DNA of 64,000 nt from Mustelus asterias. Lineage: Eukaryota. Position 1 is the first letter of the stretch; each line of letters begins with the position of its first letter. Shown here piece after piece: positions 28,201 through 64,000 of this stretch. The notes below the pieces were generated by a model that saw only the letters and a program-made list of their open reading frames with translations, did not search any database and was not told where the DNA came from. The stretch lies in contig NC_135801.1 in assembly GCF_964213995.1 (NCBI RefSeq), positions 11,222,001-11,286,000 on the forward strand, written 5' to 3'. Position numbers and translations under genes: made by a program.

Positions 28201-31200
28201 GCATTTTGTCCTGAAGCTTGTCCTTCTTTGTCCCTGGTTTTAGTCAGTAAATGGGAACAATGAAAATCAGTTTCTCCCTTGCGTTGTCCACGCGAAACAG
28301 CTGGCTTCTGTAAAATTGGTTACCTGCTTGAATTTGTGAATGGAGCTGTCATGAATGTTGTGCTTTCTTGTCCCACAGCCTGATGCACTGAAAGAGAAGA
28401 AGGCTCCAGTGATGTTTTGCTGCTATCCGTTTATCCTTAATCTAGTTGCCAAGATTCAGATACTTCACGTGGATTCATTTTTGAAGAAAAATGTAAAGAA
28501 TTTTATAAATATAGGACAAAAGCAACAGTTATGTGATTGTAAACCACTCTGCTCCTTTCTCCCTCTTTAAATGTTCCTTAAAATCCACCTCAGCTTTTGA
28601 TCACCTCTCTTAATATCCCTTTATGTGACTTTTTGCCAGAGTTTGTCTAGCGTGTTCCTGTGGCATTTTGACAGGTGCATCTTAAGTACAAGATTCTGTT
28701 GTTTCAAACTCCCTTTCTTTGCTCCCTTCGTCTCACTGATCTCCTTAAATGCTGCACCCCTCTCCAGCTGAAAGGGTTAACACATTATCTGTGGATAGCC
28801 ATGAGTGGCCCTTAGCCCCGCCACTGAAATGTGCAGCAATGATTTATCTCCTAGGCACGGCTGTGAGCAGTCTGGAAGTAAAATCGGTCGAAAGATTTTC
28901 TTCTCGCATTTCTCCGTAGCTTGCTGGGCTGTGACATGCACCGGATGCAGTGCAGCCCCCGGTGCATTTAGACTCTGGTGAAACCATGCGATGGGCTGCA
29001 TCTGGAGCACAGAGGGTTGTGGATTTTACACAGAATGTCCAGCTCAGAAGCAGCCCAACAGGTTCATGCAGGTTCTAATGCTCCACGTGAGCCTCCACCC
29101 ACATAGGAACATACAAATGAGGAGTAGGCCATTCGGCCCCTCAAGCCTGCTCCACCATTTGATGAGATCATGATCTAATTGTGTCCTCAATTCCTGCCTG
29201 TTCTCCAAGACACTTTGACTCCTCTGTTGGTCCAGAATGTATTTACCTCAGCCTTAAAAGTATTCAATGTCTACTTCCACTGGGGAAGAGTGTTCCACAG
29301 ACGCAGGGCCCTCTGAGAGAAAAAAATTCTCCTCATCTCTGTCTTAAATGGGAGACCCATTGTTCTTAAACAGTGTTCCCTAATCCTAGTCTCTGTCATG
29401 AGAGGAAACGTCCTGTCAAGTCCCCTCAGGATGTTATCTTTTGGAGAAGATCACCTCTCATTCTTCTAAACTCCAATGGATATAGGCCAACTTTTCCTCA
29501 TAAGACAAATCTCCACACACGTATCTTTCCATTCCTTTCTCCCTCATATTTATCCAGCTTTCCCTTCAATGCATCTTTGCTATTTACAACAACTGCTGCA
29601 TGCGGAAACAGATTCACATTGGCATCACTCTCTGATAAAGAAGTTTCTCCTGAATTATCCATATTCAGTCTATTGGTGATGCTTTTATCTTTATGGCCTT
29701 TAGTTCTGGACTCCTCCACAAGGGATCAGGCTATTGAATTTCATAGAATCCCGACAGTGCAGAGGGAGGACATTCGGCCCATCGAATCTGCACCGACCAC
29801 AATCCCACCCAGGCCCTATTCCCATAATCCCACATGTTTACCCTGCCAATCCCCTGACACCAGGGTCAATTTAGCATGGCCAATCCACCAAACCCACCCA
29901 TCTTCGGACTGTGGGAGGACACCGGAGCGCCCGGAGGAAACCCACGCAGTCACAGGGAGAACGTGCAAACTCCACACAGACAGTGACCCGAGGCCGGAAT
30001 TGAAGTTCCTTGGCGCTGTGAGGCAGCAGTGCTAACCACAGTGCCACCGTGCTGGTGATGATTAACCATGATCAAAATGAATGGCAGAGCAGGCTCGAAG
30101 GGCCGAAAGGCCTACTCCTGCTTCTATCTTCTATGTTTCTATGGAGGTATCTTCACCCCTCAAATGGTTTAGGATTATTGTTGAAGTTGTCAGTTTATCA
30201 TAGAATCTTAGCAGTGTTTAGATCCTAGTTTTGTTAATATTTTCTTTAACAAGATGCTAATGTGCAGTATCTTTGCTCTTTTTCTAATTTTTATTCTTCA
30301 GAAAGCCTTCATTGAAGCAGTGAATTTCACACAGCTCAACGTCTGCATGGGAAACCCTGAACCTCCCAAATATCCTACATTCAACTTGAAGGTTAATCGC
30401 CAAGACTTGGTTTCCGATACTTTTAAAAAGTTGAAAAATGTGGATGAAGTTGACCTGAAGAAGGAACTTACGGTAAACAGAAATTCTCTTCATCACTCTA
30501 TTATTATGAATGGAATCAGCTCTTTGAGGTACGGTAGTGCAGTGGTTATGTTATTTGAATCATAATCCCTAAGAATGTTAGTTCGAATCCTACCATGGCA
30601 GTTTGAGAGATGCAATTGTTCAAAACATCTAAAAACAGGTAGCAGTAAAAAGTGACCTTGAGGCTGTTGGATTATAAAAACTCAACTGGTTCAAATACGT
30701 CCTTTAAGGAAGAAAATGTGCTGTCCTTTGCCAATGTGGCCTAATTGTGTCTCCAACATCAACATGAATCCTGCGGTGAGTAACACACCTCCTAACTCCC
30801 CAAAGTCTGTCCACCATCTACAAGGCACAAGTCAGGAGTGTGATGGAATACTCTCCACTTGCCTGGATGAGTGCAGCTCCAACAACGCTCAAGAAACCCA
30901 ATACCATCCAGGACAAAGCAGCTCACTCAATTGCTACCCCTGCCACAAACATTCACTCCCTCCACCACCGATAAACAGTGACAGCTGTGTGTACCATCTA
31001 CAAGATGCACTACAGGAACTCACCAAGGTTCCTTAGGCAGCACCTTCTAAAGCCATGACCTCTACCATCTAGAAGGACAAGAGCAGCAGATACCTGGGAA
31101 CATCACCACCAGGAGGTTCCCCTCCAAGTCACTCACCATTCTGACTTGGAAGTATATAGCCGTTCTTCACTGTCGCTGGGTCAAAATCCTGAAGCTCACT

Positions 31201-34200
31201 TCCTTAACAGCACTGTGAGTGTACCTACACCGCATGGACTGCAGGGGTTCAAAGGGGAGCTCACCACCACCTTGTCAAGGACAGTAAGAATGGGAAATGA
31301 ATGCTGGCCTAGCCAGCAATGCTCACATCCCTTGAAATGTATACATTTATAGATATAAAAAGATTCGCTATTAACTGATCACTCAGTGGTTTGAAAAGAC
31401 AATGCCAATGATTTCAGAAAGCAAGTGTGCAACAGTGTTTCTGCACTAATATTTGCATTTGCTTTGATTTCTTTAGGTGAAATTTGATGGCGAGCCAGGA
31501 ATGGACTTCGGAGCTGTAAGACAGGAGTTTTTCCTTTCTGTCTTCAAAGAATTGATTCGACCAGAATCCAAAATGTTTATTTATCGTCAGGATTTCAGAA
31601 ACATTTGGTTTCCCTCCAAGGTGAGCCCTTGTAACGTAACTTGCTTAAGAAAACAGTTTGTCGGTGGATGGAGATGGTACATGGAGGCACAGTGGTTTGC
31701 ACTGCTGCCTCACTGCGCCAGGGACCCGGGTTTGATTCCTGGCTTGGGTCACTGTCCGTGCGGAGTCTGCACGTTCTCCCCGCGTCTGCGTGGGTTTCCT
31801 CCGGGTGCTCCGGTTTCCTCCCACACTCCAAAGATGTGCGGTTTAGGTGGATTGGCAGTGCTAAATTCTCCCTCAGTGTACCCAAATAGGCGCCAGATTG
31901 TGGCGACCAAGGGATTTTCACAGTAACTTCACTTCAGTGTTGAGGTAAGCCTACTTGTGACTAATAAATTAACTTTAACTTTTTACTTTCATACTCCAGA
32001 TCTTGTAAAGTGATCTGAAAATATGATGTGGCTCCAAAGTTCCAATCACCCTCTAAACTGCAAAGGTTTCTCATTAAAAGTGTTCAGTTCGGAATATGTA
32101 AGCCTTTACTTAGTTATCAGATGATGTGGAGATGCTGGCGTTGGACTGGGGTGGCATCGTAAGAAGTCTCATATCACTAGGTTAAAGTCCAACAGGTTTA
32201 TTTGGAATCACGAACTTTCGGAGCGTCGCTCCACTGCTCCACTCACCTGATGAAAGAGCAGCGCTCCGAAAGCTTGTGATTCCAAATAAATCTGTTGGAC
32301 TTTAACCTGGTGTTGTGAGACTTCTTACTGTTACCTATCAGAGCTCAATCTTGTGACCGTAAAGAGACACAACTCTACCTTAGGAGAAGAATAATGCATC
32401 ATGCATTGTTTGGGCCTTATATCTTAGCGTATATCCACAAGAACTAGGAGCAGAAGTAGGCCATTCAGCCCCTCAAGCCTACTCCACCATTCGGTAAGTT
32501 TATGTCTTCCCTGACTGTGGCCTCAACTTCACTTTCCTGTCTAACCCCCCATAATTCTGACTCCCTTTTCAAACAAGAAACTATCCAACTGAGCCCTGAA
32601 TATATTCAATAACCCAGCCTCCCCTGCTATCTGGGGAAGAGAAGTTCCACAGACTAGAACACTCTGAGAGGAAAAAACTCTCCTCATCTCAGACTTCAGT
32701 GGGAGGCCCCTAATTTTTAAACTGTGTCCCCTACTTCGAGAATTTCCCACAAAGGAAAACAGCCTCTCGGCACCCACCCCTCAGAATTTTATCTACTTTA
32801 ATGAGATCACTTCTCCTTCCTCTAAATTGCAATCAGCCTGTTAAACCTTTCCTCATAAGACAACCCTGCCTCATTCCGGGATGAGGGGTGGTGGGGATCC
32901 CAACCATTCTCTGCTAATGCGATTATATCCTTTCTTAACTGCACCCAGTACTCCAGAGGTGATCTCACAACTGCAGGGGAGGCTGGGTCATTGAATATAT
33001 TCAGGGCTCAGTTGGATAGTTTCTTGATTGAAAAGGGAGTCAGGATTATCGGGGGGGGTCGGGGGCGGAGACAGGAAAGTGAAGTTGAGGCCACAATCAG
33101 GGAAGACATAAACTTACCGAATGGCGGCGTAGGCTTGAGGGGCTGAATGGCCTACTTCTGCTCCTAGTTCTTGTGGATATACGCTAAGATATAAGGCCCA
33201 TACAATGCATGATGCATTCTTTTTCTCCTAAGGTAGAGTTGTGTCTCTTTACGGTCACAAGATTGAACTCTGATAAGTAACAGTAAGAAGTTTCACAATA
33301 CCAGGTTAAAGTCCAACAGGTTTGTTTGGAATCACGAGCTTTCGTAGCGCTGCTCCTTCATCAGGTGAGTGGGGCAGCGGAGCGGCACACCGAAAGCTCG
33401 CAATTCCAAATAAACCTGTTGGACTTTAACCTGGTGTTATGAGACTTCTTACAACTGCAGCATACTTTCCCTACCTTATGCCCCACTCTACTTTAAAGTT
33501 TATTTACTAGCGTCACAGGTAAGCTTGCAATGAAGTTACTGTGAAAATCCCCTAGTCGCCACACTCTGGCACCTGTTCAGGTACACTGAGGGAGAATTTA
33601 GCATGGCCAACGCAGCTAGCCAGCACGTCTTTTGGAATGTGGGAGAAAGCTGGAGCACCCGGAGGAAACACAGGCAGACAGAGGGAGAGATGCAAACCCC
33701 GCACGGACAATGACCCAAGCCGAGAATCGAACCCAGGTCCCTGGCACTGTGAGACAGCAGTGCTCACCACTATGCCACCGTGCCGCCCCATTTACTTGTA
33801 GCAAATTTGAAGGTGATTTGTTATGGCTTCAACAAGGAACAGATTATTAATATAATGTATATACAGGAAAAGGATCTGGTAGAACTAATACACAAGTCTA
33901 CTCTTTTCTCCTCCCTGGCTCCAACTGAGGTTCCTCCCCGTCCCAGGACACGTGCCCTTGTTCCCAATTGGATTGGCTTCCGGCGCAGCCTCTTCATAGG
34001 GTCCAACTCGATCACGTGGCCCTCAAAGGACCTAAAGGTGCAACATTACCACACTACTTGTAATAATTGCCAGCATTTTGTTTGCCTAACTAGTCATTTG
34101 GTGTCGCTGTGTACTAACTAACTTCTTGTGGTTCATGTACCAGGACACCCAGATCTTTCTGTACCGTAGATTTCTGTAGTCTCTCTCCATTTAAATAACA

Positions 34201-37200
34201 TACCGTTTTTCTATTCTTCCTGCTAAAGTGGACACGTTCACATTTTCCCACATTGTACTCCATCTGCCAAATCTTTGCCCATACATCTGTCATCAGCAAA
34301 TGTAGTTACACTTGGTCCCTTCATTCAGGTCATTGATGTTGCTTGTAAATAGTTGAAGCTTCAGCACTGAACCCTGTGGCACTCCATTAGTTCCAGTTTA
34401 CCAAACCAAAAAAAAAAAATGGATTCTAGTATTGTCCCTATGACATATGTTAGGCCCACTGGCCTATAGTTCCTTGCTCTCCGTCTCCCTCCTTTCTTGA
34501 ATAGTGATGTTACATTTGCAATTTTCCAATCCGCTGGAACCTTTCCTGATCCTCGGGGATTTTGGAAGATCGGAACTATTGGATCTTCCTGCCGGGATTT
34601 TACGACCTCGCTCAGGTGAGGCTCATAAATTCCCACCCGAGGCCAACAGAGAATTCCGTTCTGTGAGCCTCGCCTGCCCCAGAATCGGGGCTGTAACATT
34701 CCGGCCACTATCTCTGCAGCCAGTTCTTTTAAGACATTCAGGTGTAAGGCCACCAAGTGAGGGGACAAATGCAAGAAATGGCAAGGTTTCCAGTAGGGAA
34801 CGCACCTACCACATCCCAGAAAAAGTAATATCCATCAATTTTCATCGTGGAACAACAGAGACATATATAAGCAATTATCCAGCAAAGATCTACCATCAAG
34901 AAAGGAGATGAATCAGTAAATTAAGGTTGCCACATTACAGGAAGAATGTGGAGGCTTTGGAGAGGGTGCAGAATAGGTTTACCAGGATGCTGCCTGGATT
35001 AGAGGATGTGACCTATAAGGAGGGGCTGGACAAACTCGGGTTGTTTTCTCTGGAGCGGCGGGGGCTGCGAGGAGACCTGATAGAAGTCTATAAAATTATG
35101 AGAGGTATAGATAGGGTTGACAGTCGGAATCTTTCACCCAGAGTTGAAATGTATAATACTAGAGGGCATGCACTTAAGGTGAGAAGGGAATGTTCAAAGG
35201 AGTTGTGAGGAGCAGGTTTTTTACACAGAGAGTGGTAGGTGTCTGGAACTGCCAGGGGTGATGGTGAAGGCAGATATGATGGGGGCGTTTAAGGAGCTTT
35301 TAGATAAGCACATGAATATGCAAGGTATAGAGGGATATGGACCAAGGGCAGGCAGAAGGGATTAGTTTAAATTGGCGTCATGTTCAGCACAACATCGTGG
35401 GCCGAAGGGCCTGGTCCTGTGCTGTGCTGCTCTATGTTCGGTTTTTTATGGTTGAAACTCCTTTCCACTGCTATCTTGGATTTGCATGAATCTAAGCAAC
35501 TGAATATCGGGTTTGCAATTGAACAACCGTGTAAAATTATTAACTGTACAGGAAAATGATCAAACTTATCAATATAGTAGCATTTAGTATGTTTGATATG
35601 TGTGAACCACCATTTTCATTGGCAGGTCAGTATCTCTTTCAGATGTCCAGGGTTTGAGAATTCCAATAATTTCTATCTTTAGCAATTAACAGTTTTGTTA
35701 TATTCTGTTGTCTTCCACACTCTAGATCTCAGTGCCTCTTGAGAACTACTTCCTGCTTGGAATATTGTGTGGTCTTGTTGCGTATAATTCCAGTGTCATC
35801 TACATCCCCTTCCCACTTGCGCTCTTCAAGAAGCTACTGGGTGAGAAGCCCACTTTGGAGGATCTGAAGGGTCTGGATCCTGAGTTGGAGATGTAAGTTC
35901 CTAAGTCTGCAGACGGGTTGTTCACAGAAAGGTTTTAAGCTGTTGCTGTTCATATGTTTGTTTAATGACATATCTGCGTGGGTACAGCATCAGACACAAT
36001 GTGGGAAGAGGGAAGAATAGACAACCGGAACAGCAGGAAGATCAGGTCACAAGATGAAATGACAGTGCCATCGCTTTATTACAGGTACAGATCCTAGATT
36101 AGCTGCAAAGCATTTGATTCTGAGGACTATGTCCAAATACAACAGGGTGAGAGCTAAGCTTTTTTTCTAACGTAGAGCTCTCTACTGTGATGGTACCATC
36201 CCTTTAAGAAATGTATTTACATCATGTTTCTTGTGAGGGGTATGTTTAAAGTTCAGTTCTGGTTTTCCTGGTGCCGATCTGTCTGCAATCCAGGCATCAC
36301 CCTGCTGAGGATGCAGGAGAATAATTGATTCTAGATAATGGGGTGTTCGTTTTAATCTGAGGGAGTGCATTTTTTTGTTTATTTTTCCCCTGGGGTTTCA
36401 GAGTAAGGTTTAATTAGGTCGATTGACAAAACACAGGGTCGTGTGAATGGACGGAGCTAAGCTTACAGGGAAAACAGTTTAGTTTCTGCTTGATCCTGAA
36501 AACAGCAAGAGGTGTTTTTCTCTCTCTCTCTGGAGGCTGCTGTTTGAGTGTCAAAAGACAGGTATCTCTGTCTCTCTATCTCCAGAAGTGTTCAAAGGTT
36601 TGAGGACTGGCAGCCCACATTCCAGCACATATGCCTGTGTTGTTTGCTAACTGATGTTGAAGAGGAGCTTAAGTCTATGAGGAGTATTGCTTAACTTGGA
36701 ACTTATTGTGATTGTTAGCCACTAAGAATTGTATCTCGCCTCCTTTAAGTATTTCAACTGATAAAAGTTAAGCTAATTAAGTTGTTATATTTAAGCTGTA
36801 TTGTTAAAATAAAGTTTGTTTTGATTAAAAAAAACGTTCTCGTGGGTCAACAAAATCACACCTGGGGTGAAACACCTTATTCTCACAGTAATGCCAAAAT
36901 CAAAAATAGTTGGAATCTATTCTAACTTCAGAATACACCTTGGGGTTTCTGATCTAGTCCCTCACACTACCTTCACCTGTATAAACATTGCAGTTATTGA
37001 AATTGATTTTTGCTGAAAGGCTATCATTTTTGTATTCTTTCCTGAGATGCGAACACCACTGAGGCCAACATTTGTTGCCCATTTCTAATCGCCCTTGAAA
37101 AGGTGCAGGTCATCTGGTGTGGGTACACCCACAGTGCTGTTCGGAAAGGAGTTCCAAGATTTTGACCCAGTGACAGTGATGGAACGGTGTTACACTTACA

Positions 37201-43200: not shown

Positions 43201-46200
43201 ACTTATCTTGAATAAACTGGGATTGTTCTCCCTGGAAAAATGGAGGCTGAGGGATGACCTGATAGAAGTTTATAAAATTATGAGGGGTATGGATAGGGTG
43301 AACAGTTGCAAGCTTTTTCCCAGGGCAGAAATGACAATTACAAGGGGGCACAAGTTCAAGGTAAGGGGGGAAAGGTTCAGTGGAGATGTGCGGGGGAAGC
43401 GTTTTGCACAGAGGGTGGTGGGGGCCTGGAATGCACTGCCAAGTGAGGTGGTTGAGGCAGATACATTAGCCACATTTAAGATTTATCTTGATAGGCATAT
43501 GAACAAATGGGGAATAGAGGGATATGAGTCCCTGGTTAGATAGGTAAGTGTGAGCGGCACAGGCTTGGAGGGCCGAAGGGCCTGTTCTTGTGTTGCACTG
43601 TTCTTTCTTCTTTGTATAGAAAGACTCCACACACAACGAGAGATAAAAACACCGAGGGGGCACCATTATCTTAGAAAAAGTACCAGTGAAACACGATCAG
43701 TTTATAATATATAGAGAGTGCAGACTGGTCTTCTCTCCTCTGTGAACACCACAGATTATTCAGGAATCAGGCGGCGCAGTGGTTAGCACTGCTGCTTCAC
43801 AGCAACAGGGACCCGGGTTCGATTCCAGCCTTGGGTGACTGTCTGTGTGGAGTTTGCACGTTCTCCCCATTTCCTTGTGGGTTTCCTCCGGGTACTCTGG
43901 TTTCCTCCCACACTCCAAAGATGTGCAGGTTAGTTGGACTGACCATGATAAATTGCCCCTTAGTGTCCAAAGATGTGTGGGTTAGCTGGATTAGCGAGGT
44001 AACTGCATGGGGTTATGTGGTGGGGAGGGGGGTTGGCCTGGGAAAGGTGCTCTGTTGGAGAGTCAGTGCAGACTCGATGGGCCAAATGGCCTCCTTCTGC
44101 ACTGTCGGGATTCTATGAATAAACTTGCTTAGCATTAATGTGAGGATTTGGGGAATTGAAATACAAACTTATCTTGAAATTGTATTATATTGTTTGTGAA
44201 ATGCTAACGATGTTTATGTAACAGAATACCACATATGAAGGCATCTACAGCAGATCACATCCAACCATTAAGATGTTCTGGAAAGTATTCCATGAGCTAC
44301 TTTTGGATGAGAAGAAAAGATTCCTCTGTAAGTATCTCACTGAGCAATGGTTATGTCACAAAATTAAGATGGAATTCAGTTATATCCCATATGAGCTTCC
44401 AGAGGGAACCTCCCCTCCCCCAAAGGGTCTCATAAACTCATTGGGCGGTGGAGGCGGTGGGGTCTTGCTCATTCAAGAGCCTCAATTGGCAGCAGGGTAA
44501 GGAGGCCATCCATATGTTTTCCTGCCATGTATTTAATCCGGGTGGAGGAGGCCTTGTGGCGTAGCGCCCTTCCCACTGGACCTGAAGCTCGGGGTTCGAG
44601 TCCAGTGCCAGGACTTGTTGGTCACGGAAGGAATGTTCAATATGGTTCAACATTGATTCAACAAGGCTGATAGCCAACTCTGGAATCCTTCCACCACTTC
44701 CCCCACTATTCCCCAAAGGATACAAAACAGTATTGGTGTGAAGATATGCCAACTATAATAATTGGAATAGAGACAGGAAGGATTGAACATTTCCCTGCCA
44801 CCGTACTAAATTTCACCCATAGAGTCATTATGGCATAAAAGCAGGCCATTTGGCTCATCGAGTCCACACCAAATCCAGTCTGTCCCATTCCCCCACTCCA
44901 TTTCCATCGCTCTAAGTTTATTTCCCTTGTGTGCCCATCCAATTTCCTGTGAAATCATTGACTGCCTCCGCTTCTACCCTGATAGGTAGCATGTTCCAGA
45001 CCCATACCTGATTTCGTACACTTCTCCTTTAGCGGCCGTGCTTTCAACGTAGGACATGGGTGTTGCTGGTTAGCCAGCATTTATTGCCCATCCCCCTAAT
45101 TGTCCTTGAACTGAGTGGCTTGCTAGACCATTTCAGAGGGCAGCTAAGAGTCAATCACATTGCTGTGGCTCTGGAGTCACATGTAGGCCAGACCGGGTAA
45201 GGACGGCAGATTTCCTTCCCTAAAGGACATTAGTGAACCAGATGGGTTTTCCCAACAATCAACAATGATTTTAGATCATCAGTAGATTCTTAATTCCAGA
45301 TATTTTTTATTGAATTCAAATCCCATCTGCCGTGGTGGGATTCGAACCCAGGTCCCCAGAACATTAGCTGAATTTCTGAATTAATAGTCTAGCGATAATA
45401 CCACTAGGCCATCACCTCCCCCTTATGAAAGTATGATGTAAAGATGTCGGCGTTGGACAGGGGTGGGCACAGTAAGAAGTCTCACAACACCAGGTTAAAG
45501 TCCAACAGGTTTATTTGGAATCACAAGCTTTCGGAGTGCTGCTCCTTCATCAGGTGAGTGGAAAGGTAGGTTTCACAAACATAAGACCATAAGACCATAA
45601 GACATAGGAGCGGAAGTAAGGCCATTCGGCCCATCGAGTCCACTCCACCATTCAATCATGGTTGATTTCAACTCCATGGCATATATAGACAAAGACAAGT
45701 TTGAAGACTTGCATTCCAACCATTATGTTGCAATTGTGTCTTTTTCTATATATGCCGTGTTTGTGAAACCTATCGCTCCACTCACCTGATGAAGGGGCAG
45801 TGCTCCTAAAGCTCATGATTCCAAATAAACTTGTTGAACTTTAACCTGGTGTTGTGAGACTTCTTATTATGAAAGTATGTCAAACAAAATTATGAAAAGA
45901 TGTGGTTGGGCAGATAGGAACAAACTGGGTTTATAAGATCATAAATGCCTTAACATTTACGGGTTAATTTAGATATCTCAGGCTTGAAGTTAGGTTAGGC
46001 ATGAAGTTTTTGTTCTGGATGTTAATGAAACAGTTCAGAATACTGTCTTTTAGGAATCATTCATCTTGCGATATGGTAGTTGGTGCTTTGCATAAGGAGC
46101 GGGGACACTGGGTAGGAAAGCATTTAGTCATTATGTTATGGCCATTCTGGTGAGGGACAGGTTTGACGGGCCAATTCGTCTTTTCCTGCCTGCCATCTTT

Positions 46201-50615: not shown

Positions 50616-51934
50616 GATAAAATGGGTATATTAGAATCAAATCAGGGACAGAAAGAGAAATAAAGAGGAAAAGAATGACTGAGATTCCTTCGCAGATATT
50701 AACGATCAGCAGATTGCTGACATGGTATCACACTATCAATTATTAGACTTTATTGTGCAATTAATTTGAAAACCCAGCTGACCTTGGGGGTTACCATTGA
50801 TCAGAAACTAAACTGGACTTGTTTAATGTGGCTACAAGAGCAGGTCTGAGGTTAGGAAGTGGGTAACTTACTTACTGATTCCGCAAGAATAAGTCAGGAG
50901 TGTGATGGAATACTCTTTCCTTACTGGTTGAGTGCATCTCCAACAACACTCAAGAAGCTCGACACCTTCCAGGGCAAAGCAATCCACTCGATTGCTATCA
51001 CTTCCACAAGCATTCACTCCCTCCACCATCGACGAACGGTGGCAGGTGTGTCTACCATCCACAAGATGCACTCCAGGAATTCACCAAGGCTTCTTAGGCA
51101 GCACCTTCCAAACCCACGAGTGCTACCATCTGGGAGAATATGAGCGGCAGATACCTGGGAACACCACCCATCTGAAAGTTCTCCTCCAAGCCGCTCACCA
51201 TCCCAGTCTGGAACTATACCATCATTCCTTCACTGCCACTGGGTCAAAATCCTGGCATTCTCTTCCTAACAGCACCGAGGGTGAACCAAATGCAGCGGTT
51301 CAAGAAGGCAGCTCACCACCACCTTCTCAACAGATACTAGGGATGGGTGATAAATGCTGGTCTCGCCAGCAATGTCCATATCCCATAAATGAATAGAAAA
51401 ATAAAGTTCTTATTAATAACGGGGAGGCTAAGGGAGGATTGATGTTTATGCAAAGCAAATTGGAGCACTATAAATTGTCCAGCGAGTTACGAAGATTTGC
51501 ACTTGCCGCATTTCTCTGGATCACCTTAACTTTTGGGCCGATTTGCACATTAATAACAGCATGCATCATTCACACATGGCTATTTATTCACAAGTTTCAA
51601 CCCATTGCTTAGCAACTCTATCCTAGACTGCTTGCAAAGGTGTTAAAAATACTCCAATAGTTCCTTCTGAACTGTAGGGATTCAATGAATAAAACAGAGG
51701 AGTGACAGGTCTTTGCCTTGGCAATGCCACATGAAGAGGTGGCAAGGGAAATGCGATGGTGCATCTATTTTTGAGGTGCCCTCATAGGGGTGGCAAGGAG
51801 TTGTTTGTTTTTGGCAGTTCCAAGCAGCTCATTGGGAAGCTTTCAGTTAGAGGGCAGTTGAGACACAGCCATGCCCGGCATGAGAACTAGTTGTCCCAAC
51901 AGGCCTCCCTGCCATTTTACTGCCTATGGTATTC

Positions 51935-52092
51935 ATGATGTGGAGATGCCGGCATTGGACTGGGGTGAACACAGTAAGAAGTCTCACAACACCAGGTTAA
52001 AGTCCAACAGGTTTATTGGTATTAATGGTTAATGGTATTTGCTACCAAATAAACCTGTTGGACTTTAACCTGGTGTTGTGAGACTTCTTACT
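51935..52092. mobile_element. Penelope-like palindromic remnant
   Basis: Perfect 45-bp inverted arms at 51973-52017 and 52048-52092. Confidence 0.7.
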
Positions 52093-52364
52093 ATTTGCTG
52101 CCTCCCAGGGGAGGCACAAACCACGACCCAGGGGCTGGTTAAAAAAAAACACTGCCCATTGTTTAGTGCTCACTTTCAAAAGGGCACTGGACAATATTTT
52201 AAAACCAAAAAGTATGCAGGGGTATGGGGAAAGAACAGGGATGTAGCCAACTGGATACCATGATGGGCTGAATGGCCCTTTTCTCTGCTGTATGATATGG
52301 TTTCGAGATCAGAGCACAGGTCAGTTCCTGTAACAAACCAAATCCTGCTTTACAGCATGGCCGT

Positions 52365-52740: not shown

Positions 52741-52755
52741 CAGTTTCGGTTTCAG
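52741..52755 (+). promoter_or_regulatory. ISRE (interferon-stimulated response element)
   Basis: CAGTTTCGGTTTCAG matches AGTTTCNNTTTC, about 350 bp upstream of the gene 2 ATG. Confidence 0.8.
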
Positions 52756-52788
52756 TTGCCTTTCATCACTCTGCAACAACAAATGTTG

Positions 52789-52802
52789 GGAAACGGAAAG
52801 TG
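52789..52802 (+). promoter_or_regulatory. IRF-binding element
   Basis: GGAAACGGAAAGTG matches GAAANNGAAA. Confidence 0.7.
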
Positions 52803-52892
52803 ATGGGTGCAGAGGAAAGGGCACTTCCCAAAACAATCCGGGTCTTGTTGCCATTGGCTCGCACCGTTGGTTCAGAGGCGGAGCCAGAGAAA

Positions 52893-52902
52893 GGGAATTC
52901 CC
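52893..52902. promoter_or_regulatory. NF-kB site
   Basis: Palindromic GGGAATTCCC, near a GC-box-like GAGGCGGAGC (52875) and an inverted CCAAT (ATTGG, 52853). Confidence 0.7.
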
Positions 52903-53101
52903 CAAATAAACAAATACATTGTGTGTCAGAGACAGAGAGTGTCAGAGGCAGCCACAGTGAATCTGCAGCTACAGAAAAGGAGCCACTTTATCTGTCTGGC
53001 AGCTAAGTCTCTGCGGTGAATAGAGTTCTCTCTCTCTCTCTGGTTTGAAAGAGGAATAATTTCGAGGAGCTCAGTGCTCAGAGACAGAGACAGAGAGGAA
53101 G

Positions 53102-53282
53102 ATGTTGCATTGGGGGGAGCTGGGCTCAAAGATCCGGCACAAACCCGCCTCACAGACAGTGGATGTTTTCCAAGAGGAGAGAACTCAGCATGTTTGCAGC
53201 CGGGACACAGTCACTGTGTTTGTGTCGGAAAATGGAAAAGTTTACACCAGCGTCCGTGTGCGGAAGAGGAGAACAGAACCTG
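53102..53282 (+). CDS. Gene 2 exon 1 (start codon)
   Basis: aagATG; MLHWGELG...VCSRDTVTVFVSENGKVYT...EP|gtgag. Confidence 0.8.
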
Positions 53283-56200
53283 GTGAGCAAACCCTGTCTG
53301 CAATAGGAAAGAGAATGTTTTAAAATTAAATTATTATTGCTAACATTGACACACATGACAATGTATTAATTTAGACATATTAAAGTGTTCAGAGTTTGGA
53401 ACAAACTCTATATTTGATAGAGATCCTGTATTATCTATATAAGTTTCTTGTGTGACTCTTGTTAAAGTCTGGTATTTCTTCCAAACAGATTGGCATCAGG
53501 AATTGTATTTAATGTTTAATTTAATGTTTCTGCGTTTCCCCCGCATTGCATTCATCTTCAATGTGGTTGTGGTTTGGGTTAGAATCTGGGTGATGATTCT
53601 AATGTGTGAGTACAGTGTCTGGGGGTGAAATGCTGGATTTATCCAGAGCGGTGCAGTTTCGTTTCCCTTCATTCTCTCCTCCCCTTCCCCACCCCAAACA
53701 ACTCTGTCCGTTTGATTTTGCTCACTTTCAGTTTCATTTCTCTCAGTCACAGTGAGAGCAGCAGCAACACTGAGCCTGGCTCGGAATAGAAACCTTAAAC
53801 CCATTAACCCAATACTTGTAAAACCAACACACACCATTGGCAGGAAAAGCTTGGTTAACTGAGTGGATCTTGCTGCGAGTTTCATTAAGGAGCATTGTAT
53901 TATTATTGGAGGAGACAAGTTGACCAGGAGAGAGAATATTTTAATACCGACCTCATTTTTTATCTGAATTGTTTTAATGTAAATTTTACATGATTTAAAA
54001 TTGCCCCCTTTTAAAAAATGTTGCTTTCTCGCTCACTTAACTTCCTGCAGCCAATTGCTATTCAATCAAAAGTGAATTGACTGTAGTGCATAACAGGGTG
54101 GCATGGTGGCATAGTGGTTAGCACTGCTGCCTCACAGCTCCAGGGAATCGGGGTTCGATTCCCGGCTTGGGTCACTGTCTGTGTGGAGTCTGCACGTTCT
54201 CTTTGTGTTTGCGTGGGTTTCCTCCGGGTGCTCCGGTTTCCTCCCACGATCCAAAGATGTGCTAGTTAGTTGCATTGGCCATGCTAAATTCTCCCTCAGT
54301 GTACCCGAACAGGTGGCGACGAGAGGATTTTCAGAGTAACTTCATTGCAGTGTTAATGTAAGCCACTTGTGGCTAATAAATAAACTTTACTTTTTATTTC
54401 TTGCTGTCAACTATTACTCCCATTGTCAGAGAAGCTGTAAAGTGACAGTTACATTTTGGCACAAGCAGCAGATTGAGTTAAAGTTTATTTATTAGTCACA
54501 AGTAAGGCTTACATTAACACTGCAATGAAGTTACTGTGAAATTCCCCTAGTCGCCACATTCCGGCACCTGTTCAGGTCAATGCACCTAACCAGCGCGTCT
54601 TCCAGAATGTGGAGGAAACCGGAGGAAACTCACACAGACACACACAGGGAGGACGTGCAGACTCCGCACAGACAGTGACCCAAGCCGGGAATCGAACCCA
54701 GGTCCCTGGCGCTGTGAGGCAGCAGTGCTAACCACTGTGCCACCGTGCTGCAGAAGCAGCTGGTAACTTTCAAGCTTTAGGTATAGAGAGCCTCATGTAA
54801 CTGGGACATTCTGAGGAACAGGTTTGATTACTGAGCAAAAGAGGAGGAGGAGATGAATTCCAAATGGGAAATGTTTCTTTTATGAATATCCTTACCTCGA
54901 TGAACGCAAAGTCAGCAACTGGATAGTCAGAAGCTTTTCCCTAGGGTGGAAGAGTCAATTACTAGGCGGCATTGGTTTAAGGCCTGAGGGGCAAGGTTTA
55001 AAGGAGATGTAAGAGGCAAGTTTTTTTACAAAGAGGGTGGTGGGTGCCTGGAACTCGCTGCCGGGGGAGGTAGTGGAAGCAGATACGATAGTAACCTTTA
55101 AGGGACGTCTTGACAAATACATGAATAGGATGGGAATAGAAGGATATGGTCCCCGGAAGGTTGGGGGGGTTTTGGTTCAGACGGACAGCATGGTCGGTGC
55201 AGGCTTGGAGGGCCGAAGGGCCTGTTCCTGTGCTGTAATTTTCTTTGTTCTATTATTTTGGTGAGAGGTGGGAGTTGAAAAGTTCACACTAGGGTTTACA
55301 AGTGTGTAAACTGCTGTTAGTGGCTAACAGCTTTTTCATGTGGTTTCGCTGCATGAATTGATAGGGACAGGGTTAGACTGACCAGCCCCTGAAATGTGTT
55401 CCACCATTCAGTTAGATGACCGCTGATCTGTACCTCAATTATATTTACTCAACTATTCCACAATACCCTTACCTACTAAAATTCATCAATCTCTGTCTTG
55501 GAAATTTTAATTGACTTAACAACCACAACCTATTGGGAGTAGAGTTCCAAATCTCTACTACTCATTGTTTAAGAAGTGCTTCCTCATTTCACACATAAAT
55601 GGCCTGAATCTGTTCATGACCCGTACTCAACTGAATCTTTTAAACTTTGGCATATTTCCAATGAAGTGATCACTGTTGCGACAGCTCCATTTGCAAGTAA
55701 ATCAACAGCAGCAAGACACAACTTCTCCTTTGAATTAGTTGGTATATTCTTTGCATAGATTTTTTTTACATTCGCTGCTGGAATCCAGGTGTCACTGAGG
55801 AAGGCTGACAATCATGGTACATTGTTGTCCTGCGAATGCGCCGCTGAGTCATGTTTTGACATGACTGTGTAGTAGCTCTCTGGGCTATTTCAGTGTCAAC
55901 CACATTGGTGTGGGACTGGAGTCACTTATATAAATTGCCTCTTAGTGTCCAGGGATGTGTGGGCCAGATGGATTAGCCATGGGAAACGTGTGGGGTTGCG
56001 AGGATGAGGGCTTGGATAAGATACTCAGTCAGAGAGTCAGTGCAGACTTGTTGGGCAGAATGGCCTCTTCTGCACTGTAGGGATTCTATGATATAGACAA
56101 GCTATGGACAGCAGGTCTCCTTCCCTAAACTACTTTAGAGAATCAGATGGGTTTTGACAATCAAACAGCGTCATGGTAACCAATTTTTAAAACTGAATTC

Positions 56201-59200
56201 AAATTCTCAAGCGCTAATGGTGGGATTTCAATTCTCATTCTCTGGATTATTAATCTAGTCACATAACCGTTGTACCACCAAATCCTTAAATATTAACACT
56301 GTGTTTACATTCTTTTCCTGCAGGACAATTTATTCACTTCAAGAAACAAAAGATCTACTTTGCGGACAGCGGAATGTCCCACATCCTGTTTCTCTCTACA
56401 ACAGGAAGTCTTTTTTGTAGTAAAATTAAATCAAAGGAAACTGTAGCTAAAACAAAAGAATTTCCCATAATGGAACCACAGTAAGTTAAATAAATCAATT
56501 AAAATAATAAACCACACTTTATGCACTTTACAGCAGGCATTACATTAGTCTGGCGGTTTTTAAGGATTAAAAAAATGATGCTTTTGTTTGATTCTGCGCA
56601 ATGGTAATTAAATTGAGTTGTTGACTAAATAGATGTCAGAAGTAATGATAGAATTTCGCCCTTCGATCCCAACAGGTGCAAGGATATTATTGTCAAAATT
56701 GTAATAAAAACAGAAAATGCTGGAAAGTCTCAGCAGGTCTGGCAACACCCGTGGAGAGAGAACAGCACTAACGTTTCTGGTTGCCACATTACAGGAAGGA
56801 TGTGGAGGTTTGGAGAGGGTGCCGAAAAGGTTTACCAGGTTGTTGCCTGGATTAGAGGGTCCGAGCTATAAGAAGAGGCTGGAGAAATGAGAGTTGCGTT
56901 CTATGGAGCGGCGGGGGCCGAGGGGAGACCTGATAGAAGTCTATAAAATTATGAGAGGCATAGATGGGGTTGACAGTTGGTATCTTTTTTCCAGAGTTGA
57001 AATACCTAATACTAAGGGGCATACACTTAAGGTGAGAGGGGAAAATTCAAAGGAGATGTGAAGGGCAAGTTTTTTACACAGAGAGTGGTAGGAGTCTTGA
57101 ATGTGCTGCCAGGGGTGGTGGTGGAGGCAGATACGATAGGGGCGTTTAAGGGGCTTTTAGATAAGCACATGAATATGCAAGGAATGGAGAGATATGGACC
57201 AAGGGCAGGCAGAAGAGATTAGTTTAATTTCAAGCCTGGATGACTCAGTTTTTGATTTGATTTGATTTATTATTGTCACATGTATTAGTATACAGTGAAA
57301 AGTATTATTTCTTGCGCGCTATACAAACAAAGCATACCATTCATAGAGAAGGAAATGAGAGAGCGCAGAATGTGGTGTTATAGCTAGGGTGTAGAGAGCA
57401 TTGTTAGAGAGTTTAAAAGAGTTAGACTTAATTTTAGAAGCATAGAACGAGAGTAAAAGATAGAATTAGAAGGTATGCTGGGCACAGCTTGCGACAAGCC
57501 GCCTCACTCCGGCGCCATCTTGAAAAAGAAATTCTATTCTCTCTCCACAGATTCTGTCAGACCTGCTGAAACTTTCCAACATTTTCAGTTTTTGTTTCAG
57601 ATTCAAGCATCTGTAGTAATTTGCTTTTGTCAAAATTGTAATGTCTCACTTGAAAGACAGTGCTGCACTCCACTGAAGGGTCAGGTTTGATTACGTGCTG
57701 AAGTCTCCAGGGTGGGACTTGAACCATAAACCTCAAAATCAGGAGGCAAGAATGCTACCAGCTGAACCAAGACTGACTTGCTAGGGCGGATTTGGCTATT
57801 GATTACCCAGTGGCCTATCTCTGATAAACTATAATATCCCGTAGGTTCTGTAGTTGTTCAGATTGTTAATGTAGAGATACAAAGACAAGAGCCTATAGTT
57901 GCATCCTGAAGTCCAATGTTAACAAGAACAAAGAACAGTACAGCACAGGAACAGGCCCTTCGGCCCTCCAAGCCTGCGCTCATCACGTTTACCTATCTAA
58001 ATCAACCGCTTATATCCCTCTATTCTCCGTTTGTTCATATGCCTGTTCATATAACATGCTATAACTTCCATTAAAACATTACAAAATAGCCTCTTATAAA
58101 ATGAATTAGATGTATTTAGGAGAGATTTATGTATGATGTGTCATTATGTTTATGCTTTGTTTATGTTTAGGTTACTTAAGGGTTTGAGTACCAGAAATAT
58201 AATTCAAGTGGCTTGTGGAAACAATCACTCACTGGCACTGTCGAAAGGTATGAGTTAAGCTAAAATATATTTGTTGTAACTTAATCACAAATAGATTAAA
58301 ATTAAGAAGCTGTGGACCTAGCCGTGTTGTACCAGGCCTGAGTTTAGCATGATATGTAACATGATTGTCATATCCATGGTTAATATTGGGATGTTTGCAT
58401 TTCGTCAAATACCGAATTGGCAACAAAAGCCAAGCCATTAAGTAAATCAAACTTGAAAAAAACATCCTTCTGTTTAATATTTTCCTAATTTACCTCAGTG
58501 AGAAACTGAGAAGGAATCGGAACGTATTGTCAGTTTTTTGTAACGCCATCTACTTGGTCATACTTATCACTGAACAAATGTGTCAGGAACACACTTTTGC
58601 TTCTGGCTCAGAAGATTGTGGCTTCAAATCCCACCTCAGGACTTATGCACAGAAGAATCAAGGCTGTCACTCCAGTACAGTACTGAAGGAATATCCAAGT
58701 TGCCTTTGGCCTTCAACATGAGAAGGATCAGCTCAGTATATTTCTATCCCTGGGATATGGGCATTGCTGGCACATCTCATCTTTACTTGCCCTGATGTAA
58801 TGATTTGGCACAGTTGAGTGGGTTCCAACGCCACTTCAGAGAGCAATGGGGGGGCGATGGCCTAGTGGTATTATCGCTAGACTATTAATCCAGAAACTCA
58901 GCTAATGTTCTGGGGACCCGGGTTCCCGTTTGGGGGGAATGGGAGCAAAGATTATGGGGCGAAAGCAGGATTAGGCTATTGAGTTGGACAATCAGCCATG
59001 ATCGTGATGTTTAGCAGAGCAGGCTCGAAGGGCCAAATGGCCTCCTCTTGCTCCTATCATCTATGTTTCTATGTTTCAAATCCTGCCACAGCAGATGGGG
59101 AATTTGAATTCAGTAAAAAATATCTGGAATTAAGAATCTACTGATGACCATGAAACCATTGTCGATTTTCAGAAAAACTCATCCGGTTCACTAATGTCCT

Positions 59201-62200
59201 TCAGAGAAGGAAATCTGTTGTCCTTACCTGGTCTGACCTACATGGGACTCCAAAGCCACAGCAATGTGGTTGACTCTCAATTGTTCTCGGGCAACTAGGA
59301 ATGGGCAATGAATGCTGACCAGCCAGTGACACCCATGTCCCACGAATGAATTTAAAAAAATCAACAGATCTACATATTTGTTTAAAATGGATTCAAATTT
59401 TCAAATTGCCCTGTTGGGATTTGAACTCACAGTTGGAAAAGGAGCTTGATATTACTCGGCTGTCAGAAAGAGATAATCAAGAACAATGTCCATCCATCAA
59501 TCTCTTCTGTTCTGCCCGAGGGCAGGTGTTAACTCAAGCCCTGCACACATGACTTTTGAGCCATCTACGCAGGAGTTTACCATCCTGAGGCCCAAAGAAC
59601 GTACCTGTTCCTGGAATCCAGGGTGTTCAGCGCTGGGGACTGATTGCAGTTCCACTCCTGTCCAGTAACGTTTCTGGTGATGCAGAGACTAGAGAGCTGT
59701 CACCCAAGCAGATTGGCTGGGAGCTCGCTTCTGGTGGGACTTCCTCCTGAGCGAGTGGTGGAAATTCCACTTGAAGCCAGTTAAGGCTTGTTGGAGCGTG
59801 AAATCGCTGCGGGACAAACACTGTTGTCGGGGAACTGGATGCGGGAAGGGAAAGCCCACCAAACTAAAAATCCTGACCCACATACTAGTCTCTACTTAGC
59901 GGGGCTGTCCAGAGTGGTACACACACACTTCACCTTCTGATTCAAAGCTGTGTGTATCACTGAGCGGAATAGTGTATATTGAAGTATATGTACTGCAAGA
60001 GAAATGGTTTGTTGGCCATTTATGACTTAATATTTAATACCCTGAACATTATCCATATCCAATACAGTATAGACATTGACCTAAAGTCGAAACCAGTTTT
60101 TGTATTTCTCAGTCTCATTGTAAGAGTTAAACATAATCATTTCAAACCTGAAGTAATTTTTTTCTCAAATGTCTTTTGCTGAAAGATGGTGAAATCTTTG
60201 CCTGGGGACAGAACACTTACGGCCAGCTCGGTCTTGGTACACAGGAAGCCTCCCAGAGCGTCCCTCAGAGTGTGATATCTCTCACTGGGATGCCAGTGGC
60301 TCAGATCACTGCAGGAGGGGAACACAGCTTCGCCCTGTCTCTCTCAGGTGCCGTCTTCGGTTGGGGAAGGAACAATCACGGGCAGCTGGGGCTTAAGGAC
60401 ACAGAAGGTAAGAAAGTTTCCAAGAACTATTGCCCTTCCTTACCCTTTATGCTGCTTCCATTAACAAAGCCTGGCATCCTGTCCAAAAGGAGAGAATAAT
60501 TTAACGATCGGATTTGCAGTCAGTGGCATTATATCTGAAATAGCCAGGTGGTGAAGGATAGCACCAGAGTCAAATCATTACACTCATCGTAGCTTTTATT
60601 TACAGAGATACATTTTAAAAATGTGCACTTCCAAACACAAGCAGCACAGTGGCACAGTGGTTAGCACTTCTGCTTCAAAGTGCCAGAGGCTGGGGTTCGA
60701 TTCACAGCTTGGGTCACCGCCTGTGCGGTGTCTGCATGTTCTCCCCGTCTCTGCGTGGGTTTCCTCCGGGTGCTCCAGATTCCACCCACAGTCCAAAAGA
60801 CGTGCTGGTTAGGCACATTGGCTGTGCTACATTCTCCCTCAGTGTACCCGAACAGGCGCCGGAGTGTGGCGACTGGGGGATTTTCACAGTAACTTCATTG
60901 CAGTGTTAATATAAGTCTACTTGTGACACTAATACTTAAACACACAGTTCCAGTCCGTTCGTATATGTAGGGTCTATCAGCATCTATAGAGAGAGAAACT
61001 GAGTTAACGTTTCGAGTCCAATATAACTCCTCTTCAGGACATTTCAGACCACTCCGATGTGACAGCTGTGAGATTCAATGTGTTGAGATATCACTCCTCA
61101 ATACTGTGTACCATTGAGGTTCAAGGTTACATACTGGGTAAATAATGTGGTGCCCATCAATACATGCAGTTGGATCAAATGTGTAATCGTCACCCGATAC
61201 AGTGTGACCGGGTTTCACTCCTCAGGCTGCAGTTATCTGTACAAGCGTTTTTTCTGGGTTCAGCAGCTGGCCAAAAGATTGGGACAGAAAATCCTCAATC
61301 TTGCTCACTGTTCTGTATTGAGAAAGCCAGATGTGGACCAGTTGAATGTTTTGTTTTAACATTTACATAACACCGATATGTCTGATTCTGAACTCTCAAT
61401 GGTTTGTCAGTTTAATTTCTGTGGTCTTTCTCAATCTGGGTGCTCATTGTTAGACTTCCTACATTTCTTCAACCAAGCCCACACAAACTGCAGAAAATAT
61501 TGCATCTTCTTGCTCTTCTGAGTCTTTGCTTTGAACTTTTCCTTCAGAATAATTGGATTTCATTTGTCCTCGACTCACATGTTTATATTCAGTTTTAAAG
61601 TCCCGTGCGCACCAGACATTCATCGTCACAGCGCTTTTTTACTCAACCCATTCCGAAATAGACTCATAACACAGAATGGTTTACAATAGAATAAATATTA
61701 TCCCCTCACATCACACCCAGGCTGAATGAGTGTTTCTAACACTCCCTGGACTGACGTTTACAACAATATCAAGTGCAATAAAGTCAGAATCATTATACCC
61801 TTAACTCAGTTAATAACGTTTACATGCAATCTTCATGATTAAAAATCTTCTTGTTCTGCACCATACTTTGGAAAAGGGGGAGGAATGTGAGTTGATTTCT
61901 CTTTCCATCCTTCTTACAGATAGATATGAACCCAACCACGTGAAGCTGTTGGAGTGTAAGAAGACCATCCATATCTCTTGTGGGGAAGAGCACACTGCTG
62001 TCCTGACAAAGGTTTGTTCAGGAAGAATTTGTCATTAGAATCTCAATCATTCCTTATTGGGATGGGAGATAGCCGCCATTGTAATTACAACCACTGCTTT
62101 TTACCCTTGGTGCAGCCCACCTAGGGCATAGCCTGATTAAAAACTGTGAGGTAAGTGGCAAGGTGGCACAGTGGTTAGCACTGCTGCCTCACAGCGCCAG

Positions 62201-63405: not shown

Positions 63406-64000
63406 GTGAGCTTGTCAGACGTCAGCAAATCAAAATGTAGCTATATCTCTTTCACTCTGTTTTATGTGTGAACCAGAAAGATTTAAATTTATGTAACTCT
63501 TTAGTTCCTGCACATTGATGGCTCTTTGCTGTGTGAGTCTGTTCAACCAGTTTATTATCTGTAGAATTCAGTGACATTTTTAGACGGCTGAGATCTAAAA
63601 GGTTCTTATTTCCCACTTGGAAATAAATAATGGGCAAAATCTTGTCTGTGTGGAGTCTGTACGTTCTCCCCATGTCTGCGTGGGTTTCCTCCAGGCGCTC
63701 TGGTTTCCTCCCACAGTGCGAAAGACATGCCGGTTAGGTGCATTGGACATGTTAAATTCTCCCTAAGTGTATCCAAACAGGCGCCGGAGTGTGGCAACTA
63801 GGGAGATTTTCACAGTAACTTCACTGCAGTGTTAATGTAAACTTACTTGTGACACTAATAAATCAGAAGGACATATTTTACACAGAGGGTGGTGGGGGCC
63901 TGGAATGCGCTGCCGGGCAAGGTGATTGAGGCGGACACACTGGGAACGTTTAAGACTTATCTAGATAGCCACATGAACGGAGTGGGAATGGAGGGATACA

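What the first reader, a model, noticed from the sequence alone, without database searches (positions are those of the whole stretch)
32159..33460. About 470-bp inverted duplication with template-switch scars, predicting a long intronic dsRNA hairpin
Seen: 32973-33452 is the reverse complement of 32159-32627 (Penelope palindrome, apparently unique DNA and a CR1 tail; roughly 90% identical by eye). It interrupts a CR1 fragment and is flanked by a direct repeat ACAACTGCAG (32967-32976 and 33451-33460), with GCAG and AC overlaps at the junctions. Inference: FoSTeS/MMBIR or polymerase-theta templated insertion. The pre-mRNA of a likely interferon-induced gene could fold a long duplex, a substrate for ADAR or dsRNA sensors.
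Basis: partly seen in the sequence, partly recalled or inferred. Interest (0 to 1): 0.7.

Follow-up and report, generated by a model that had tools for sequence, protein, structure and literature searches.

The report
Old inverted duplication in shark intron
A 470-base piece of a shark gene's intron was copied backwards right next to itself long ago, probably as a by-product of a jumping gene trying to insert there; it can fold the RNA into a long hairpin, but nothing suggests that this has a function.

Summary
The duplication is real. Positions 32159-32627 and 32973-33452 are inverted copies (440 matches, 29 substitutions, 11 gap columns) with a 10-nt direct repeat. They interrupt a CR1 fragment in a 4.1-kb intron of a shark HERC5/6-like gene. 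Contigs support the left junction in the same organism and, short of the tool's bridging rule, the right junction in a relative. The unique middle is low-copy, so the unit is not a transposon.

New here: the copy stops exactly at the Penelope pLTR/tail boundary, where 3 of 3 independent tail-less Penelope ends in the window stop. The direct repeat points to a staggered cut, not a replication-fork switch.

Best reading (0.45): a Penelope insertion attempt cut the site and fixed the outer end, and repair copied nearby DNA through the older Penelope copy.

The RNA duplex is predicted but ordinary: it is one of 20 inverted pairs in this gene and shows no sign of selection for pairing. Editing could not be tested. 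The scan noted fold-back Penelope ends in other shark windows, but not this flank copying.

The parts
31477..31620 (+). Upstream HECT-domain exon of a HERC5/6-like gene (aa 714-763 of the closest named protein); donor GT at 31621
   Evidence: tblastn 98% to P0001; donor position
31621..35725 (+). 4105-nt intron holding the whole structure; next exon starts at 35726
   Evidence: Pfam HECT hit on 35726-35893
31680..31978 (+). SINE copy (HE1-like; name recalled) forming a 79% inverted pair with 33493-33782 that encloses the duplication
32121..32158 (-). 38-nt Penelope tail of the older (donor) insertion; not copied. Differs from the two other window tails by 1 deleted and 2 changed bases right at the copy boundary
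   Evidence: alignment of window Penelope ends
32159..32235 (-). Outer half of the donor Penelope palindrome; start of the left arm
32236..32331 (+). Inner, inverted, tail-less half of the donor Penelope palindrome, with a minimal hammerhead-like core starting at 32247
   Evidence: motif read by eye, no Rfam hammerhead hit
32332..32435 (.). Low-copy host DNA inside the arm; begins with the likely right target-site copy of the donor Penelope
   Evidence: no other window match; contig depth 8-23 in four runs
32436..32627 (-). CR1 3' tail, copied part; 32624-32627 is the 4-nt microhomology
32628..32972 (-). 345-nt spacer (loop): the same CR1 fragment continuing
   Evidence: contigs run from the left arm into the spacer in X1 and X3
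32967..32976 (+). Left copy of the direct repeat (target-site duplication, 4 to 10 nt, 14 with one mismatch); a 13-nt CR1 deletion lies at its left edge
32973..33452 (-). Inserted inverted copy (right arm); its outer end is at the Penelope pLTR/tail boundary
   Evidence: left junction in X1 contig 32837-33007, right junction in X3 contig 33425-33546
33451..33460 (+). Right copy of the direct repeat
33461..33492 (-). Remainder of the interrupted CR1
33493..33782 (-). SINE copy, partner of 31680-31978

Best explanation
A selectively neutral scar of a Penelope insertion attempt beside an older Penelope copy. Shown: an older Penelope fold-back insertion sits at 32121-32331; a later event put a reverse copy of 32159-32627 into the neighbouring CR1, duplicated 4-10 (up to 14) nt of target, and used 2-4 nt of microhomology at each join. 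Inferred: (1) the Penelope endonuclease made a staggered cut at about 32967/32976, giving the direct repeat; (2) the bottom-strand end was primed at the family's tail-less reverse-transcription start, which fixes the outer end at 33452; (3) this short end paired with the homologous Penelope copy about 800 nt away, or with a fold-back strand that had copied it, and host DNA synthesis copied the local palindrome, unique DNA and CR1; (4) the other end was joined through GCAG. The intron RNA can form a long duplex that ADAR probably edits, like other shark inverted repeats, without a role of its own.
For: The donor continues for 38 nt of tail beyond 32159, yet the copy stops there; 3 of 3 independent tail-less Penelope ends in the window stop within -1 to +3 nt of the same base. 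In vitro a Penelope-like protein cuts both strands and starts reverse transcription at two internal sites that define the 30-40 nt tail (PMC11167929). Penelope target duplications of 8-10 bp, microhomology joins and capture of host DNA are described (PMC3846280); another window copy has a 13-nt duplication. For L1, inverted duplications of local DNA with a TSD-like repeat arise at retrotransposon-cut ends (bioRxiv 2024.12.14.628481). A 9-nt perfect microhomology for the return (32312-32320) and three nearer GCAG sites, one with a 5-nt match, were passed over, which fits synthesis starting from the Penelope end. The family was active then: by inspection only 2 changes are shared by both arms against 7 and 8 arm-specific ones, and the copy at 51933 has 0 differences from consensus in 87 nt.
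Against: No fresh Penelope sequence is visible: the copy shares local variants 14 and 69 nt from its outer end. The observed end is also the second-best imperfect microhomology (5 of 6 nt; 2 of 828 positions reach that) if the 13-nt deletion is older than the event, and it is the base of the donor hairpin, so DNA repair alone could pick it. The target is 53% AT, against 56% for the window and 64-68% at two Penelope sites. The L1 cases have small hairpins, this one a 345-nt loop. SINE and CR1 insertions far outnumber Penelope ones here, which lowers the prior. It is a single event, with no genome to count similar cases.
Confidence: 0.45

Rival explanations
1. Break repair without Penelope enzymes (MMBIR- or polymerase-theta-like, the first reader's idea). 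A staggered break of other origin was resected, the top-strand end folded back on CTGC 345 nt upstream, copied 480 nt, was released where the palindrome's symmetry ends and rejoined through a 5-of-6 microhomology.
For: Microhomology at both joins. The end point is one of only 2 of 828 positions with at least 5 of 6 matches and is the base of a stable DNA hairpin (partial fold z -10). The copy carries only local variants. A 13-nt deletion sits next to the site.
Against: It treats the match to the tail-less Penelope end as a side effect. It passes over a 9-nt perfect microhomology and nearer fold-back sites. A polymerase should stall at the near side of the hairpin (32328), not the far side (inference). 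480 nt is long for polymerase-theta inserts (recalled).
Confidence: 0.38
2. True flank transduction. Penelope reverse transcriptase copied an antisense read-through RNA (CR1, unique DNA, Penelope end), starting internally at the tail-less site, and inserted the cDNA close to the transcription site.
For: Internal initiation ignores extra 3' RNA. Penelope mobilises host DNA in trans. It explains the local variants, the exact end and the target duplication in one step.
Against: Insertion 345 nt from the source needs a tethering step with no precedent that I found. The anole protein needs ORF nt +20 to +172 in its RNA, more than this fragment is likely to offer.
Confidence: 0.08
3. Replication-fork template switch (FoSTeS, four-point model): exit at 32976, copy the opposite strand from 32627 to 32159, return at 32967.
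For: It gives exactly this sequence, with 2-4 nt of microhomology.
Against: The return lies before the exit by at least 4 nt, an order not seen among 794 filtered events (PMC5453318 section 6). That survey covered short events only, so it is not a strict test here.
Confidence: 0.05
4. Two steps: a second Penelope end inserted at 32967-32976, and later gene conversion from the older copy extended it into the flanks.
For: The outer Penelope half is more diverged between arms (9 of 77) than the rest (20 of 392; Fisher p 0.038).
Against: The left join falls exactly on the target repeat, which one event explains more simply. The outer half is CpG-rich and both arms carry 4 private changes each.
Confidence: 0.04

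Closest known systems
L1-induced inverted duplication at the reciprocal break end (bioRxiv 10.1101/2024.12.14.628481, section 9)
   Same: Local genomic DNA copied in inverted orientation, short microhomology at the fold-back, TSD-like repeat between the two break ends.
   Different: Here germline and old, Penelope rather than L1, a 345-nt loop instead of a small hairpin, no distinct cDNA insert or poly(A); the outer end lies in a homologous older element.
Complex insertions of endonuclease-positive Penelope-like elements (PMC3846280, PMC8557442, PMC11167929)
   Same: The donor element has the inverted truncated copy, a tail at one end and a target duplication; the copy has a tail-less end and a repeat of similar length; capture of host DNA is described.
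   Different: The captured DNA comes from 345 nt away, and only one end of the insert is Penelope sequence.
Four-point template-switch mutations (PMC5453318)
   Same: Reverse-complement copy of nearby sequence creating an inverted repeat.
   Different: Far longer, and the return precedes the exit, an order not observed in that survey.
Intronic inverted-repeat dsRNA hyper-edited by ADAR (PMC5625713)
   Same: A long imperfect duplex in an intron, partly made of CR1 and Penelope, both reported as edited repeat classes; elephant shark brain has 200,171 unique hyper-edited sites, 81% in repeats.
   Different: Made by local duplication rather than by two independent insertions, so it is closer to perfect (92% against 74-87% for the other window pairs); editing is not shown here.

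Membership tests
Penelope-like element insertion (donor 32121-32331) | Inverted 5'-truncated copy adjacent to the pLTR end | tested here: met
   73-nt inverted halves, 89% complementary; same layout at 45433-45866 and 51933-52093
Penelope-like element insertion (donor 32121-32331) | 30-40 nt tail at one end only | tested here: met
   38 nt at 32121-32158; 39 nt in the other two copies
Penelope-like element insertion (donor 32121-32331) | Minimal hammerhead ribozyme in the pLTR | tested here: inconclusive
   Core motifs present by eye at 32247; no Rfam hammerhead match at E up to 10; cleavage not tested
Penelope-like element insertion (donor 32121-32331) | RT plus GIY-YIG endonuclease ORF | not testable with these tools
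   Only end fragments seen in the window; no genome held; the motif was absent from three collections. The family label rests on structure, on recall and on two earlier notes.
Penelope-made insertion (the copy 32973-33452) | End at a reverse-transcription start site | tested here: met
   Offset 0, against -1, +1 and +2/+3 for three independent tail-less ends
Penelope-made insertion (the copy 32973-33452) | Target-site duplication of about 8-13 nt | tested here: met
   10 nt exact, 4 nt if both overlaps come from the template, 13 of 14 extended
Penelope-made insertion (the copy 32973-33452) | AT-rich target | tested here: not met
   53% AT over 30 nt against 56% for the window; small sample
Penelope-made insertion (the copy 32973-33452) | Sequence from an active element at the primed end | tested here: not met
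   Shares local variants with the donor from nt 14 inwards
FoSTeS / short-range fork template switch | Inverted local template with junction microhomology | tested here: met
FoSTeS / short-range fork template switch | Return point at or after the exit point | tested here: not met
   Return 4-10 nt before the exit; order unobserved in PMC5453318
MMBIR / polymerase-theta templated insertion | Microhomology at both joins, template near the break | tested here: met
   4 nt and 2 nt (5 of 6 imperfect), template 345 nt away
MMBIR / polymerase-theta templated insertion | Dependence on POLQ or POLD3 | not testable with these tools
   Ancient single event
Multicopy transposable element (whole unit) | Many copies of the full 470-nt unit | tested here: not met
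   Bin 33211-33263 has depth 23, 7.9, 9.3 and 16.1 in 4 runs, against 4e5-6e6 in Penelope bins; depth is no exact copy number
ADAR substrate | Long RNA duplex in the transcript | tested here: met
   Predicted: -939.9 kcal/mol for 32121-33460; longest runs with G-U 72, 68 and 47 bp
ADAR substrate | A-to-G clusters in RNA | not testable with these tools
   All runs laid were contigs
Interferon-stimulated HERC5/6/7 gene | RCC1 repeats plus HECT, closest to HERC5/6 | tested here: met
   Pfam; listed hits outside cartilaginous fish are mostly named HERC6 or HERC5; no tree built, HERC7 not excluded
Interferon-stimulated HERC5/6/7 gene | ISRE promoter or measured induction | not testable with these tools
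   The 5' end of this gene (aa 1-128) is outside the window; the next paralog has an ISRE-like cluster

The most novel reading that the evidence does not exclude
In sharks, Penelope insertion attempts beside older Penelope copies regularly recruit the old copy as a repair template and duplicate hundreds of bases of flanking host DNA in inverted orientation. With so many Penelope ends in these genomes, this would be an undescribed germline source of local inverted duplications and of near-perfect long intronic dsRNA.
Probability: 0.2. Interest if true: 0.6.

Novelty: new member of a known kind. Interest (0 to 1): 0.3.

Why it matters
As a single event it is a well-preserved mutation scar with no shown function. 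If the Penelope trigger holds and recurs, it would extend retrotransposon-induced fold-back duplication, so far shown for L1 in cell clones and tumours, to a germline Penelope system. It would also give a countable genomic signature (tail-less end plus target repeat plus inverted flank) for testing how Penelope integration intermediates are resolved in vivo, which the papers read here call undefined.

Tried and rejected
Assembly or fold-back library artefact: rejected, since the arms differ at 29 positions plus indels and a relative's contigs carry parts of the structure. Whole unit as a transposon: rejected. Selection for sense-strand pairing: 10 G-U-compatible against 11 A-C changes, p 1.0. 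miRNA precursor: all 9 Rfam matches are far below gathering scores and reflect the palindrome.

No whole genome held. The Penelope motif found nothing in viral, metagenome or prokaryote collections, so no outside insertions could be counted.

Empty site: none among the 15 joints shown, with 990 hidden, so undecided for organisms C and D. No listed X1 piece covers the right junction; a hole proves nothing. Piles of loose ends at 33452 (462-1015 contigs per run) were not used, because any Penelope contig must leave the reference there. Depth ratios in organisms B, C and D for two arms were too noisy to use.

Gene conversion between arms: only one non-CpG site (33202) hints at it; not claimed. 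The script printed 3 and 1 shared changes because of consensus ties; by inspection they are 2 and 0. The distances printed from the hammerhead ATG are one base off and are not used. A match of end positions to the anole element's 111-118 nt was dropped, because the text read does not say which of the two start sites this is. The gapped CR1 control was not significant and was replaced by an in-register test.

Literature: no paper held all of Penelope, inverted duplication, flanking, endonuclease and microhomology; some searches gave only the precedents cited. Earlier scan notes: nothing by sequence or by two word searches.

Full report
Observation. The two arms, 32159-32627 and the reverse complement of 32973-33452, give the strongest self-match in the window (91.7% over 480 columns). 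They show 440 matches, 29 substitutions and 11 gap columns, mostly in one C-rich tract. The direct repeat and the GCAG and AC overlaps are as reported, so the duplicated target is 4 to 10 nt, or 14 with one mismatch. The left arm runs on into the spacer as one CR1 fragment, so it is the source. The CR1 resumes after the insert in a single register, with a 13-nt deletion at the left edge of the repeat (57 of 88 identities against at most 33 for 21 other offsets; 38 of 10000 shuffles; a gapped control was not significant).

Reality and age. No genome is held. Four runs were laid on 32628-34200, all as contigs. In X1 (organism A, possibly the window's own source and so not independent) a contig with 0 differences spans 32837-33007, across the left junction. 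Another carries 7 left-arm alleles at depth 23, against 17.3-19.8 for single-copy contigs; two merged arms predict 23.5 and one arm 18.0 (the merging of bubbles at k=31 is recalled). In X3 (organism B, another study) one contig joins the left arm to the spacer and one covers 33425-33546 with 6 differences. The latter has only 28 letters left of 33452, under the tool's 31-letter rule, so it is strong but not formal support for the right junction. No listed piece spans the whole stretch. B differs from the window by 22 of 711 bases (3.1%), the arms differ by 6.2%, and C and D by 6.4-8.5% on single pieces. The event is thus about twice as old as the A-B split; its state in C and D is undecided. 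The unique middle has depth 8-23 against 4e5-6e6 for Penelope bins, so the unit is not a mobile element.

Host gene. Exons from 1174 to 46492 match a Mustelus asterias protein (P0001), mostly at 75-100% identity, with RCC1 and HECT domains. Outside cartilaginous fish the listed relatives are mostly named HERC6 or HERC5, at about 40-50% identity (best 120 of 659 listed). No tree was built, and HERC7 is not excluded. Members of this group are interferon-induced in mammals and zebrafish (passages of PMC10003058). This gene's promoter is outside the window. The structure lies in intron 31621-35725, 538 nt from the donor and 2.3 kb from the acceptor.

The Penelope boundary. The donor palindrome is a standard Penelope-type insertion: a tailed end (32121-32158), an inverted tail-less end (about 32331) and a probable target repeat (passages of PMC8557442 and PMC3846280). 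The ORF could not be seen, so the family label rests on structure and recall. The copy does not include the tail. It stops at the base where the three independent tail-less ends in the window stop (offsets -1, +1 and +2/+3). PMC11167929 (main text read, parts 1-2 of 4; supplements not seen, and they hold the exact start positions) shows that a Penelope-like protein cuts both strands, starts reverse transcription at two internal sites, and that the tail is the sequence between them. Only 2 changes are shared by both arms against 7 and 8 private ones (corrected by inspection), so the duplication followed the donor insertion closely, while the family was active.

Mechanism. A return point lying before the exit point was not seen among 794 filtered short-range switches (section 6 of PMC5453318; short events only, supplement not seen), which favours a staggered cut. 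For L1, such cuts give inverted duplications of local DNA with a TSD-like repeat (section 9 and passages of bioRxiv 2024.12.14.628481). I therefore read the event as a Penelope insertion attempt whose primed end was completed on the neighbouring older copy (0.45). The steps cut, priming and pairing are inferred.

Against this reading: the copy holds only local variants, the target is not AT-rich, and the L1 cases have small loops. If the 13-nt deletion is older, the end point is also the second-best microhomology of 828 positions, and it is the base of the donor hairpin, so enzyme-independent repair remains close (0.38). Both readings must pass over a 9-nt perfect match and three nearer fold-back sites; a start from the Penelope end explains that more easily. 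Direct copying of antisense RNA (0.08), a fork switch (0.05) and two steps (0.04) are less likely.

RNA. The sense RNA folds into one long duplex (-939.9 kcal/mol), 66 kcal/mol better than two local hairpins plus the inner stem, and it is enclosed by an inverted SINE pair. It is the best of 20 inverted pairs of at least 150 nt lying within 5 kb of each other in this gene (32 in the window). Substitutions show no preference for keeping pairs in the sense RNA (10 vs 11). Hyper-editing of repeats is extensive in elephant shark, and Penelope is a heavily edited class in lizard (passages of PMC5625713). Editing here is likely but untested and would be ordinary. Sensing by cytoplasmic receptors is unlikely for a spliced-out intron (established knowledge, not tested).

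Novelty. Local inverted duplications, Penelope fold-back ends and intronic dsRNA are all known kinds. I found no paper on Penelope-triggered duplication of adjacent flanks (the library lacks most subscription journals). PMC6155905 was seen as passages; all other papers were seen as listings only. Two earlier scan notes describe fold-back Penelope ends in other shark windows as ordinary. Verdict: real, old, probably neutral, with one testable mechanistic twist. Interest 0.3.

Noticed in passing
window 52742-53740: Five of the nine ISRE-like matches in the window (chance mean 1.8; 0 of 100 shuffles reach 9) cluster around the probable first coding exon (about 53102-53284, weak match to P0001) of a second HERC-like gene on the + strand; likely an interferon-responsive promoter.
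   Followed up: partly
window 53102-64000: Second HERC-like paralog in tandem; its RCC1 exon at 60176-60412 is 73% identical to P0001, and the exon at 63260 scores better against mammalian HERC5 and coelacanth proteins than against P0001.
   Followed up: partly
window 45433-45866: Penelope fold-back insertion with a perfect 13-nt target duplication, holding a CR1 3' tail piece and other sequence between its two ends.
   Followed up: partly
window 51933-52093: Young-looking Penelope fold-back (0 differences from consensus in 87 nt); its probable target repeat is offset by about 10 extra bases on the tailed side.
   Followed up: partly
window 32151-32158: The donor tail differs from the two other tails by one deleted and two changed bases directly beside the copy boundary; possibly a scar at the donor, unexplained.
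   Followed up: no
window 33202 and its partner 32409: Both arms share one allele while contigs of organisms B, C and D have the other; a single-site hint of gene conversion between arms.
   Followed up: no
window 28379-28540: A second stretch matching P0001 aa 619-671 (81%), overlapping the match of the exon at 30254-30475; possibly a duplicated or alternative exon.
   Followed up: no
window 1-46492: Several inverted SINE pairs flank exons of the HERC gene, a layout that favours back-splicing or exon skipping in other animals.
   Followed up: no
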